Source: Octopus sinensis (taxonomy: Eukaryota). Taken from it: 64,000 nt of DNA. The stretch spans positions 49,910,001-49,974,000 of the forward strand of contig NC_042998.1 of NCBI RefSeq assembly GCF_006345805.1. The letters are read 5' to 3'. Numbering within the stretch: position 1 is the first letter of the stretch; each line of letters starts with the position of its first letter. The position numbers are program-made. This document shows, piece after piece, positions 50,835 to 53,800 of this stretch.

Positions 50835-53800
50835 ACTCAGAACATAAAGACAGACGAAATACTGCCAAGCATTTTGCCCGGCGTGCTAATATTTCTACAA
50901 GCACGTCGCCTTACGTCTTCACTATATTAGATGTAATTCAATATTATGATGAGTATTTTACGGATTCCATGGACAGCGAGGCTCACCAATGGAGAAGTTC
51001 TTAAGTAGATCAGGTCGAAAATGTCGCTGGAAGCTAGGATCACCAAGCATAGATTGGCATATTTCGATCACATTATGCGGAGAAAATCCCCGAAGAAGGA
51101 CATCATGCTCGGAATGGTCAGTGGCAAGAGAGGAAAAGGCCGACCAAGAACCCGCTGGCTTGACACCATCAAGAGTGATACCGGAATGGACATAGCCAAT
51201 CCGAAAGAAACGGCCCAGGATAGAACTGACTGGAGGACACTGATCCAACGAGTAACCGAGAGTCGACTTCGAGTGAGCGGATAGATAGATAGATAGATTT
51301 ACGGTATACATAGTCAAAGAAAGGTAATAATAAATCACTTACCTGTTAACGTCATCACTGACATCACTGACATTGTCGGCTTGATCAACTAAAGATCCAT
51401 TTTCCAGATTTTTCTTATGCAGCATACTATAGTCAGGAGAAGGATAGGATATGTGTTTGATGCGCCACTTTTGGTTGCCAGCAAAGTTCATAGTGCTATC
51501 CGAGAAAGCAGTAGCACATGGCGTAGATGCAGTATGAATTAGGCGTGTAGCGTTCAACGGTGTACTCTGCACTGACAGTGAGTGCCGAACAACCGGAAGT
51601 TTACAATTTTCTGGACATATGTTTTGAGGACCGGCGTTAGGCAGAGGTTGGTTTGTTGACAGAATGCGTTGCGTACCTATCCGAGCTGCTGGAAAGGGTT
51701 TTGGACGTGCGTATTCTGGAACAAGGTTCCAGGCTGGCAAATTCAGTGGACTTCTTGATGTTGATATTGTCTGAGATCGTACAAGTGATACTTGATTCCA
51801 TTGGTGCCTGGAAGAGGAATTTGGTGATGAAATAATTGTATTTTGTTGAAAAGTAAAGACAGGACTGTTTTCTTGCTGTATAGTTCTAATTTTATGTGGT
51901 GGAAGTTGTTGTAATTGTTGTGGTGGTTGTTGTAGTTGTTGTTGATGTTGTTGTTGGTGGTGTTGTTGCTGGTGTTGCTGAATTTGCTGTTGTTGTTGGA
52001 GTTGTAATTGTTGTGGGTGATGATAATGTTGGAGTTGTTGAATTTGCTGTTGTGGCTGTTGGTAATGCTGTTGGTGCTGTTGTTGTTGTTGTTGGTATTG
52101 TGTTTGTGGTAGAGGTGGAGGTGGTGGGTTTTGGTGTTGGTGGGATTGTAGCTGCTGCTGCTGCTGTTGTGGTTGCTGGAGAAAGTGTTGCTGATAATGG
52201 TGATGGTGATGGTGATGGTGGTGGTGATGAACATGTGGTTGCTGTTGGCTTTGTTTATTTTGGGAGTCCTGAGATAAAACTCTCAGTAGCGACTGTGGTG
52301 AAGGACTCCTTGGAATTGCGACTGACTGAGATCTTATCAGAGAAGCTGCTACAGGACTTCTTGGTGACCTGAGACACTTCTGCTGCATGTGTATTGGACT
52401 GGTCCTTGTCATTGCAGACACTTGGAATGGGGTCCATTGCGTTCCTTTAGAATGGATATGGTATCGGGAAGAGTTAGGCAAGGGACTTACCGGGGGGCTC
52501 TGAGGGTGAAAAAATGGTGAATTAAAAGAGTTCCTTAGTGTAGTATCCAACTCGGATATTGGGCCATTTGGGTCATAGGGAGGTGGAGAGGTACTCGTTG
52601 CTACATTTTTGGTTTGCACGGGGGGACTGACTCGACTAGACAAGCTTTGCTCTGGAAGGGATCGGTGAGGTTTGTGATCGGAATACCTGATTCTTCCAGT
52701 TGAAATGCTGTTAGCGCGCATTCGAGTCGAACCATTCTGGTGCCGCGGATAATTTTCAGCATAATTCCGTTTCTGTGAGTGAAGCTCAGATAATGAGCTT
52801 TTTGGAGTGGAGTCTATTGTTTCGGCTCTTTGGAGTGTCGGGCGCCATTGTAGGGGAGGAGATTTCTTGGACTCTGTGAGCAGCTGATACCTGTTTTTTG
52901 GTGAGGTAATCTGTCCATTGTTTAGGGATTCAGATTTAATTAACGCAGGCTGAAACTGCTCACAATCATTGTCCTTTGGTTCTTCGTTTTCCTGAAAAGT
53001 GAGAAAGAAATAAAAAAAAATTAGTTGGATTGAAAAGATGAAAAATGCTAAAAAATTGTAAAGGTTTGATGAACATATAAAATGTTTTAAAAAGAGGAAA
53101 GACTAATTATAATTTTCGTCATCAATATTGAAAAAATGCAGCCATTAAAATACCAACAACAAAGAAATGTAAAGGTTTATTGAAAAGAAAGGAGAAAACT
53201 GTTAAGATCTTTCGTATGCAAAATGGTTTAATACAGAAAATTATGGGAACTCAGATATTTAAACATAATGATTATGATAATGAATTAAGAAATGGATGAA
53301 TAAATGAATGAATGAACGACTGACTTAATGAATGAATGAATGATGATTGATGATGATTGATGTGTGCTGGTAGGTGATTCTTCTCTACGATTATAAAGCT
53401 TTTTTAAAAAGCACGGTTACTGTAGTTGATGAAAGGGTTAAAGTTTTCTAGCAGCAGATTTTGTGCGAGAAATCGCTTAGAAATAATAAATAGGATAATT
53501 ATATCTAAATGCATATTTTTCACATTTTTGCGTTTAATTATCTATTCATTATATTTTCTGACATGCACGGCATATTCTCGAAGATAGAGAATGCTATCAT
53601 TTGTAGGTAGCAAGAAGGACTGCGTGGAAAATGACCTTTAGGTAAAGAATCATAGAAGCATTTGGCATAAAGAAGGTCTTAGTCAAAATTTTCTTAAAAT
53701 TTCATTGTGGTGGCCGATGGATTTAGACATTAAACCCTTATCAAGGCGCACTTTTACATATGTTTAATCTCTCATAATATCAAAACTTATGAAAGAGTAA

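What the first reader, a model, noticed from the sequence alone, without database searches (positions are those of the whole stretch)
51343..52991. MARCH2/3-type ligase with a ~550-aa disordered N-terminal arm encoded by one giant exon
Seen: a 1649-nt exon with strong splice sites whose phase-2 donor joins the RING-CH exon 21.6 kb away in frame. Known: vertebrate MARCHF2/3 are ~250-aa proteins with only ~60-70 aa before the RING. From memory, their RING and TM exons have the same phases and about the same lengths as here. Inference: the catalytic core is conserved, while the cytosolic N-terminus has expanded about ninefold into a signalling or scaffold module.
Basis: partly seen in the sequence, partly recalled or inferred. 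Interest (0 to 1): 0.72.

Follow-up and report, generated by a model that had tools for sequence, protein, structure and literature searches.

The report
Octopus MARCH ligase giant disordered-arm exon
This is a real, very large coding exon of an octopus membrane-bound ubiquitin ligase that gives the enzyme a long floppy N-terminal arm, already present in public gene models and partly removable by splicing inside the exon.

Summary
Window 52991-51343 (minus strand) is a 1649-nt coding exon with consensus splice sites. Its phase-2 donor joins the RING-CH exon (29764-29560) in frame across a 21,578-nt intron. A transmembrane-hairpin exon follows at 14897-14688. Public models from Octopus vulgaris, O. 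bimaculoides (LOC106874350) and Argonauta hians use exactly these borders. An unnamed 3375-nt, mRNA-like record encodes the whole chain in a more distant lineage.

The interpretation needs four corrections:
- The start codon and the last exon(s) lie outside the window.
- Two public models splice out an in-frame 879-nt piece (52686-51808, 293 codons). It holds a PPPY motif, a His11 run and the poly-Q tract, so it behaves like an exitron. Two other models keep it, and it is as conserved as its flanks.
- The protein also has a roughly 235-aa C-terminal tail.
- Among 139 unnamed core relatives, N-arms of 100 aa or more are common (38), but none reaches 400 aa (median 73, maximum 333). The cephalopod arm has 567-629 aa and matches none of them.

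Composition and AlphaFold2 (mean pLDDT 41) fit disorder. Any function of the arm is inferred. Assignment to the MARCH2/3 subfamily rests on one database name. This is an ordinary, already-modelled gene with a lineage-specific disordered expansion.

The parts
51343..52991 (-). Giant coding exon of 1649 nt: 549 codons plus 2 nt, entered in phase 0, left by a phase-2 donor. It encodes most of the N-terminal cytosolic arm.
   Evidence: Open frame and translation P0001. Splice sites read. The same borders appear in public models P0003-P0006, and equivalent borders in P0012 and P0156.
51808..52686 (-). In-frame internal intron (exitron-like) of 879 nt, 293 codons. Donor AATCAG|gtattc, acceptor ttcctcttccag|GCACC. 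It is removed in O. bimaculoides isoform X3 and in the O. vulgaris model, and kept in isoform X1 and in the Argonauta model.
   Evidence: The junction ...STGRIR|HQWNQ... is seen in P0003 and P0004, while the piece is retained in P0005 and P0006. The non-repeat part is 88% identical between Octopus and Argonauta and 46% identical to P0156, the same as or better than the flanks.
52575..52586 (-). PPPY (PPxY) motif inside the most conserved island of the arm (TKNVATSTSPPP). It lies inside the removable piece.
   Evidence: Regex and alignments. The motif reads PPPH in P0156 and P0012, so the Tyr is not conserved outside the octopods.
52197..52229 (-). Run of 11 histidines (CAC/CAT hexamer repeat).
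   Evidence: Tandem Repeats Finder row 52197-52229 and the translation. It is also present in O. bimaculoides and Argonauta.
51876..52241 (-). H/Q/P-rich low-complexity tract of about 122 aa. It is specific to the octopods in the set and lies inside the removable piece.
   Evidence: Tandem Repeats Finder period-3 array at 51905-52094. This segment has 79 gap columns against P0156. The only predicted helix (residues 326-343, low confidence) lies here.
29560..29764 (-). RING-CH exon of 205 nt (1 nt plus 68 codons). It has a tandem CAG|TAG acceptor.
   Evidence: Pfam RINGv E = 1.1e-14. PDB 2d8s RING (named 'cellular modulator of immune recognition' in the PDB table) E = 6.8e-16. tblastn 100% identity to P0005 and P0006.
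14688..14897 (-). Transmembrane-hairpin exon of 210 nt (70 codons, phase 0 to 0).
   Evidence: tblastn, sequence and translation P0007. Two hydrophobic stretches show in Kyte-Doolittle 19-residue windows: starts at 14-25 and at 46-52, peaks 2.2 and 2.55.
29765..51342 (-). Intron of 21,578 nt between the giant exon and the RING exon.
14898..29559 (-). Intron of 14,662 nt between the RING exon and the TM exon.

Best explanation
The region is the main N-terminal coding exon of the octopus orthologue of O. bimaculoides LOC106874350. That gene encodes a membrane-anchored RING-CH (MARCH-type) E3 ubiquitin ligase.

Shown.
- The exon is real. It is spliced in frame to a RING-CH exon and then to a two-helix transmembrane exon.
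- It encodes about 550 of the roughly 585 residues that precede the RING.
- That arm has no recognisable domain and the composition of a disordered chain.
- It exists as one exon with the same borders in a second, much more diverged lineage.
- It evolves far faster than the catalytic and membrane core, yet keeps short conserved islands.

Inferred mechanism.
- The RING-CH recruits an E2, and the hairpin places the enzyme in endosomal, Golgi or plasma membranes next to transmembrane substrates. This is taken from mammalian MARCH2/3.
- The cytosolic arm, and a second long C-terminal tail, act as flexible docking and regulatory regions. They carry short linear motifs and 20 Ser/Thr-Pro sites.
- Splicing of the in-frame 879-nt internal piece switches between a long-arm form and a short-arm form. 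The short form lacks 293 aa: the PPPY island, one of two SL[IV]RSQ[ST] repeats, the His11 run and the poly-Q tract. The splice would thereby change partner binding or self-association.
For: Exon, borders and frame.

RING-CH and TM hairpin.

Public models with identical borders.
- O. vulgaris 'E3 ubiquitin-protein ligase MARCH2', 483 aa, and O. bimaculoides X3, 681 aa: 2 hits among 8000 scored candidates.
- O. bimaculoides X1, 972 aa, and Argonauta hians, 1085 aa: 2 hits among 945 candidates.

Transcript-like support. P0156 is an unnamed 1078-aa protein on a contig of only 3375 nt. It cannot contain the introns, and it runs upstream exon, whole giant-exon equivalent, RING, TM and tail. P0012, from the same lineage, is a genomic-style ORF. 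It starts in a translated pyrimidine tract (...FFLSFQ|) and ends ...EDLN|R, so the exon borders are the same.

Coding constraint on the internal piece. Identity is 88% (129/146) between Octopus and Argonauta and 46% (64/139) to P0156. The flanks give 67% and 85%, and 49% and 47%. Its non-repeat part is open in one frame only.

Disorder. Pfam finds 0 families. Disorder-promoting residues make up 74%, and no 19-residue hydrophobic window exceeds 0.39. AlphaFold2 gives mean pLDDT 41.1 with 0 of 549 residues at 70 or more.

Lineage specificity. A profile of the four arms found nothing below E = 0.1 in the 147 other core relatives. In the phmmer run, only P0012 and the window's own species model P0003 matched the arm among the best 150.
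Against: - No RNA reads could be examined. Use of both splice forms in this species rests on database models. The two models that share the internal junction may not be independent, because one could have been guided by the other's proteins.
- The internal donor (CAG|gtattc) is weak.
- The PPPY Tyr is His in the second lineage. The H/Q tract is absent there and is built on a microsatellite-like array, so parts of the arm may be neutral expansion.
- The AlphaFold2 run used only 5 aligned sequences, so low confidence is weak proof of disorder.
- The conserved C-terminus of the public orthologues (...NNQAM, ...NNLAM) is not a class I PDZ-binding motif. Reviews say that such a motif is needed to localise mammalian MARCH2/3 (PMC4021871 and PMC4897099, passages read). 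Transfer of localisation and function from mammals is therefore uncertain.
- P0156 could in principle be a processed retrocopy, not an mRNA.
Confidence: 0.72

Rival explanations
1. The 879-nt internal piece is an ordinary constitutive intron. On this reading the long models (X1, Argonauta) are intron-retaining prediction artefacts, and the true arm has only about 290 aa.
For: Two public models remove it at canonical GT..AG sites with a good pyrimidine tract. About 40% of it is low-complexity H/Q sequence that is open in several frames.
Against: Its non-repeat part is open in one frame only (4 of 5000 shuffles). It is 88% identical at the protein level between Octopus and Argonauta, higher than the constitutive part A at 67%. 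Its equivalent is present within the intron-free 3375-nt record P0156, at 46% identity like the flanks. All length differences keep the frame.
Confidence: 0.06
2. The internal splice is an annotation artefact, or rare noise. The exon is in effect always used whole.
For: The donor is weak (CAG|gtattc). The exon holds 717 in-frame GT..AG pairs of 60 nt or more, so predictors have many choices. The Argonauta model and P0156 show only the retained form. The O. vulgaris model is poor elsewhere, with a wrong 3' end.
Against: The identical junction appears in models from two species and two annotation sources. NCBI lists it as a separate isoform beside X1. I recall, without checking, that such isoform models usually need transcript support.
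Confidence: 0.25
3. The arm is largely neutral low-complexity growth (repeat slippage in a tolerant linker) with no specific function beyond spacing.
For: The H/Q tract sits on a period-3 array and is absent in the second lineage. Arm identity is only 46-49% in the alignable non-repeat segments, against 96-97% in the core. Non-homologous arms of 150-333 aa with similar composition occur in 18 of 139 relatives. No domain was found.
Against: Islands such as KSPPLQWRP, TKNVATSTSPPP, VRH..S.QSTPL.A.RL.H and W.R.KH.SYPS..Y.M are invariant across all four cephalopod sequences, and the frame is kept over about 550 codons.
Confidence: 0.2
4. The gene is not an orthologue of MARCH2/3. It would be a separate invertebrate MARCH paralogue, so the comparison with 250-aa vertebrate proteins is beside the point.
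For: No labelled tree could be made. The C-terminus is not a class I PDZ-binding motif.
Against: One public model is named MARCH2. In the phmmer run, 146 representatives scored at or below 1e-30 (this count includes the query and P0003). Most of the 150 listed match over RING plus hairpin plus juxtamembrane (query 575-745) at 33-52% identity. Many of these have 220-270 aa with the RING at about 50-80, the size I recall for vertebrate MARCH2/3.
Confidence: 0.2

Closest known systems
Mammalian MARCH2 / MARCH3 (MARCHF2/3), endosomal two-TM RING-CH E3 ligases
   Same: An N-terminal-side RING-CH is followed directly by a two-helix hairpin and a conserved juxtamembrane stretch. One public octopus model bears the name MARCH2. 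Core relatives of about 250 aa align over the whole core.
   Different: The arm before the RING has about 585 aa, against the 60-70 aa I recall. The median of 139 relatives here is 73 aa. A C-tail of about 235 aa is present. The conserved C-terminus ...NNQAM is not the class I PDZ-binding motif that the reviews describe as needed for localisation (PMC4021871, PMC4897099, passages read). Orthology was not tested with a labelled tree.
O. bimaculoides LOC106874350 isoforms X1 (972 aa) and X3 (681 aa); Argonauta hians Ahia01_001338800 (1085 aa)
   Same: These are the same gene. The giant-exon translation is 99% (O. bimaculoides) and 80% (Argonauta) identical, with the same exon borders. X1 and X3 differ by exactly the internal piece.
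   Different: They carry species-level indels in the Glu and Gln runs. These records are predictions labelled 'uncharacterized' or 'hypothetical'. No paper mentions the locus: the search for LOC106874350 found 0 papers.
Exitrons (exonic introns; Marquez et al. 2015, PMC4484396, abstract seen in search listing)
   Same: The piece is internal to a coding exon, has GT..AG ends, has a length that is a multiple of three, has full coding potential, and encodes disordered sequence. Both forms appear in public models.
   Different: Alternative use is not shown by reads here. At 879 nt it is long, and it carries a microsatellite-like tract.
MARCH4/9/11, whose N-terminal regions contain proline-rich sequences
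   Same: They are MARCH ligases whose N-termini contain proline-rich interaction sequences (PMC4021871, passage read).
   Different: By my recollection those arms have about 100-165 aa and belong to a different subfamily. No sequence similarity of the arm to any relative was found.

Membership tests
MARCH (membrane-associated RING-CH) E3 ligases | RING-CH (C4HC3, Pfam RINGv) domain | tested here: met
   Pfam PF12906 E = 1.1e-14, 54.7 bits against a cut-off of 21.6, covering profile positions 1-47 of 47. PDB 2d8s RING E = 6.8e-16.
MARCH (membrane-associated RING-CH) E3 ligases | Two transmembrane helices directly after the RING | tested here: met
   Two hydrophobic stretches show in the 70-aa exon 14897-14688, with Kyte-Doolittle 19-residue window peaks of 2.2 and 2.55. 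The second helix is completed by the next exon, which lies outside the window.
MARCH2/3 subfamily | Groups with named MARCH2/3 and not with MARCH1/8, 4/9/11 or others in a phylogeny | tested here: inconclusive
   There is only an automatic name on P0003.
MARCH2/3 subfamily | Short protein of about 250 aa with about 60-70 aa before the RING (sizes recalled) | tested here: not met
   584 aa (X1), 293 aa (X3) and 629 aa (Argonauta) precede the first RING Cys, and total lengths are 681-1085 aa.
MARCH2/3 subfamily | C-terminal PDZ-binding motif needed for endosomal localisation (PMC4021871, PMC4897099) | tested here: inconclusive
   The last exon is outside the window. The public orthologues end ...INNQAM and P0156 ends ...VNNLAM. 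This end is conserved but is not class I (S/T-X-hydrophobic). LAM could fit the class II pattern, while QAM does not.
   No vertebrate gene structure was available to these tools. Here the RING exon has 205 nt (enters in phase 2, leaves in phase 0) and the TM exon has 210 nt (phase 0 to 0).
MARCH (membrane-associated RING-CH) E3 ligases | E3 ubiquitin ligase activity | not testable with these tools
   This needs a biochemical assay.
Exitron | Lies inside a protein-coding exon, has GT..AG ends, keeps the frame and has coding potential | tested here: met
   879 nt, 293 codons, at 52686-51808. It is conserved as protein.
Exitron | Both the spliced and the retained mRNA are made | tested here: inconclusive
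   Public models exist for both forms, but no reads could be examined.

The most novel reading that the evidence does not exclude
Coleoid cephalopods gave a MARCH-type membrane ubiquitin ligase a lineage-specific disordered arm of about 570-630 aa, encoded by one giant exon whose borders are kept across deeply diverged lineages. In octopods a regulated exitron inside that exon toggles a conserved 293-aa module (PPPY island, one RSQ[ST] repeat, His11, poly-Q). Tissues, for example neurons, could then switch the ligase between a form prone to multivalent binding or condensation and a compact form.
Probability: 0.25. Interest if true: 0.5.

Novelty: new member of a known kind. Interest (0 to 1): 0.3.

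Why it matters
As it stands this is a correct gene-structure call for a gene that public annotation already models. It also shows that the public O. vulgaris model is truncated and lacks its transmembrane domain.

The finding illustrates how disordered extensions grow on a frozen catalytic and membrane core. The core is 96-100% identical, while the alignable non-repeat parts of the arm are 46-49% identical. It also gives a concrete, testable case of in-frame splicing that removes a disordered, repeat-bearing module from a membrane E3 ligase. If the splice is regulated, it would offer a handle on isoform-specific control of membrane-protein turnover in cephalopods. If it is not, this is one more lineage-specific low-complexity expansion.

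Tried and rejected
- Pfam on the arm, the TM exon, P0012 and two intronic ORFs found no family.
- ESM Atlas on the arm gave a best score of 0.76 to an unnamed arthropod cluster, which is no lead. On the core it gave only generic RINGv clusters.
- The search with the RING exon and 'longer' lengths produced only 7 candidates and 5 hits. It did not deliver named squid, Nautilus, bivalve or gastropod orthologues.
- A profile of the cephalopod arms found no significant match in the 147 relatives.
- Rfam and tRNA scans of the window found nothing.
- Literature. LOC106874350 gave 0 papers. 'MARCH2' plus 'octopus' gave 3 papers whose titles and abstracts concern unrelated topics. 'MARCH2, MARCH3, invertebrate' gave 1 paper on an unrelated topic. 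I recalled CG4080 as a fly relative, but the passages in two papers said nothing about MARCH2/3, so I dropped it. PMC1073653 is not held.
- I considered a YxxPhi sorting signal at YSML next to the RING and rejected it as a conserved feature, because P0156 reads YVMS.
- The window's exons were searched one by one. I did not make a joined spliced protein from the window or search with one. Full-length comparisons use the public models only.
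Full report
**What is at the coordinates.**
On the minus strand a stop-to-stop frame of 587 codons runs from 53102 to 51339. It is the longest of the 36 ORFs of at least 120 aa in the window. By my reading of the list, most of the others translate microsatellites.

- The acceptor ttttatttctttctcacttttcag|GAAAAC puts the exon start at 52991.
- The donor TAACAG|gtaagt puts its end at 51343.
- That gives 1649 nt, or 549 codons plus 2 nt.
- The two spare bases, AG, plus the T at 29764 (acceptor cttcttgcag|T) make a Ser codon. The frame then continues SSSDASICRICHEGE....
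- This next exon (29764-29560, 205 nt) matches Pfam RINGv at E = 1.1e-14. It matches the solved RING of PDB 2d8s at 6.8e-16.
- The intron between the two exons is 21,578 nt.
- Base composition gives about 9e-12 for a stop-free frame of this length.
- The three non-repeat parts are each open in one frame only, with 15, 4 and 0 of 5000 shuffles open. The H/Q-rich middle is open in several frames.

**The rest of the gene.**
tblastn with public relatives finds a third exon at 14897-14688. It has 210 nt and is phase 0 to 0. It holds two hydrophobic stretches, which form the transmembrane hairpin.

Of 19 probe peptides taken from the public models, only the 2 in this exon were found in the window. 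None of the 9 from the public N-termini and none of the 8 from the region after the hairpin were found. The start codon therefore lies beyond 64000 and the last exon(s) lie below 1. The window has no N.

I searched the window's exons one at a time. Statements about the full-length protein rest on public models.

**Public models of the same gene.**
The exon translation (P0001) found 2 proteins among 8000 scored candidates:
- O. vulgaris 'E3 ubiquitin-protein ligase MARCH2', 483 aa, 100% identical where aligned;
- O. bimaculoides LOC106874350 isoform X3, 681 aa, 99% identical.

A 150-aa internal stretch, searched among longer proteins, found 2 of 945 candidates:
- isoform X1, 972 aa, 99% identical;
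- Argonauta hians Ahia01_001338800, 1085 aa, 85% identical.

All four use the borders ...SSTP|ENEE... and ...DDVN|SSSS.... The window is thus most likely O. vulgaris or a very close relative. The gene is already modelled, although no paper mentions it: the search for LOC106874350 found 0 papers, and 'MARCH2' with 'octopus' found 3 papers on unrelated topics.

**An intron inside the exon.**
X3 and the O. vulgaris model read ...STGRIR|HQWNQ.... They remove 52686-51808, which is 879 nt or 293 codons (donor AATCAG|gtattc, acceptor ttcctcttccag|G). X1 and the Argonauta model keep it.

The piece is coding when kept:
- Its non-repeat part is open in one frame only.
- It is 88% (129/146) identical between Octopus and Argonauta. 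The constitutive parts on either side are 67% and 85% identical.
- All length differences preserve the frame.

It contains the best conserved island of the arm (TKNVATSTSPPPY), one of two SL[IV]RSQ[ST][VI]..RSP repeats, a His11 run and an H/Q/P tract of about 122 aa built on a period-3 array.

This is the anatomy of an exitron. I could not check with reads that both forms are made in this species. The two models that share the junction may not be independent.

**A second lineage.**
The RING exon, searched among longer proteins, gave only 5 hits from 7 candidates. One of them is P0156, an unnamed 1078-aa protein on a contig of 3375 nt. The octopus gene spans more than 38 kb for three exons alone, so this contig must be intron-free, that is, mRNA-like. 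It runs upstream exon, the complete giant-exon equivalent, RING, hairpin and tail.

P0012 came from the exhaustive phmmer run. It belongs to the same lineage but looks like a genomic ORF. It begins in a translated pyrimidine tract (...FFLSFQ|) and ends ...EDLN|R, so it has the same two exon borders.

Identity of O. bimaculoides to P0156, by segment:
- RING and TM exons: 96-97%;
- the alignable non-repeat parts of the arm, including the internal piece: 46-49%;
- the little of the H/Q tract that aligns: 33%. This tract is essentially missing in P0156 (79 gap columns);
- the PPPY motif reads PPPH.

Invariant islands include KSPPLQWRP, TKNVATSTSPPP, S.SPQ.L.RV.SQD, RSQT.S, VRH..S.QSTPL.A.RL.H and W.R.KH.SYPS..Y.M...GSLVD.ADN. 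I did not try to establish what organism or sample these records come from. The divergence suggests another cephalopod lineage.

**How unusual is the arm?**
phmmer with X1 against 1.84 billion representatives gave 3781 hits at E of 1e-3 or below and 146 at 1e-30 or below. The best 150 are listed. Apart from the query and the O. vulgaris model, only P0012 matches the arm. The others match the core (query about 575-745).

I examined 147 representatives. I dropped 3 that did not fit a RING-CH pattern and 5 that did not begin with Met. In the remaining 139, the residues before the first RING Cys are distributed as follows:
- median 73, interquartile range 48.5-104, maximum 333;
- 38 have 100 or more, 18 have 150 or more, 10 have 200 or more, 3 have 300 or more, and 0 have 400 or more.

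The cephalopod values are 584 (X1), 629 (Argonauta) and 567 (P0156, counted from its plausible Met; 702 as printed).

The five closest core relatives have arms of 24-209 aa and 199-258 aa after the RING. The 18 arms of 150 aa or more have similar disorder-type composition (mean 69%) but no similarity to the cephalopod arm (best E = 0.1).

So long, non-homologous, disordered extensions recur in this family, and the cephalopod arm is the extreme of the sample.

Caveats:
I cannot say which are molluscs.
- Gene models often truncate or inflate N-termini.
- Only the 150 best-scoring relatives were seen.

**Disorder.**
- The arm has no Pfam family and no Atlas look-alike (best 0.76).
- 74% of its residues are disorder-promoting (Q 92, S 67, P 61, H 38 of 549).
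- No 19-residue hydrophobic window exceeds 0.39.
- AlphaFold2 on a 5-sequence alignment gave mean pLDDT 41.1 and pTM 0.17. No residue reached 70, and the only secondary structure is low-confidence helix in the Gln tract, mainly 326-343.
- The last 154 aa fall just on the 'ordered' side of a charge-hydropathy plot, yet also got low confidence.

This fits disorder, but the alignment is shallow.

**Mechanism.**
Shown: a RING-CH plus hairpin core that is nearly frozen, flanked by a fast-evolving N-arm and a C-tail of about 235 aa that keep short conserved islands.

Inferred from reviews of mammalian MARCH2/3 (PMC4021871 and PMC4897099, passages read): the core ubiquitinates membrane proteins in endosomal and TGN traffic.

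Inferred from anatomy: the arm and tail are docking and regulatory regions. The arm carries 20 Ser/Thr-Pro sites, basic-Ser/Thr motifs, a PPxY in octopods, and an acidic Ser-rich stretch next to the RING. The internal splice would switch 293 aa of it on or off.

The mammalian localisation signal is a C-terminal PDZ-binding motif. It is not evident in the conserved ...NNQAM end, so the transfer of function is tentative.

**Family membership.**
RING-CH and hairpin: met. MARCH2/3 subfamily: inconclusive, since it rests on one automatic name and the Atlas gave only generic RINGv clusters. Short size: not met. The claim that exon phases equal those of vertebrates: not tested.

**Verdict.**
This is a real exon and a correct join, in a gene that public annotation already models. 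It misses the upstream exon, the internal in-frame splice, the C-tail, and the fact that moderate extensions are common in relatives. I rate it a new member of a known kind, with modest interest.

Noticed in passing
window 29761-29766 (-): The RING exon has a tandem CAG|TAG acceptor. The O. vulgaris public model uses the downstream AG (DDVN-SSSD). The O. bimaculoides and Argonauta models and P0156 use the upstream one (DDVN-SSSSD). The difference is one Ser.
   Followed up: partly
window 14880-14897 (-) and 4042-4113 (-): The public O. vulgaris model (P0003) leaves the TM exon after FLKNP at an internal GT (about 14881). It continues into a low-complexity 'exon' at 4113-4042, so it lacks the transmembrane hairpin. 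The window's TM exon is intact and 100% identical to O. bimaculoides.
   Followed up: partly
window 52280-52345 and 51725-51790 (-), P0001 residues about 216-232 and 402-416: There is an internal duplication in the arm: SLIRSQSVAIPRSPSP and SLVRSQTISTSRSPLN. The first copy lies inside the removable piece and the second lies after it. Both copies are also recognisable in P0156.
   Followed up: partly
window 16000-18270: Very long compound microsatellite arrays (TA/CA-type) give spurious ORFs of up to 386 aa on both strands. Similar arrays lie at about 1.7-2.9 kb, 54.7-57.7 kb and 62.5-62.9 kb.
   Followed up: no
window 38630-40240 and 48590-49130: Triplet-repeat, low-complexity stretches are open in several frames (poly-T/S/P/G/H translations). 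They cross-match the H/Q and Pro-rich parts of the query proteins in tblastn. They lie inside the 21.6-kb intron.
   Followed up: no
window 50958-51338 (-): A 126-codon open frame lies directly downstream of the giant exon's donor, inside the intron. It is not repetitive in appearance and has no Pfam family. It may be a fragment of a repeated element.
   Followed up: partly
whole window: No Rfam family reached its gathering score and no tRNA gene was found. GC content is 27-42% in 2-kb windows.
   Followed up: yes
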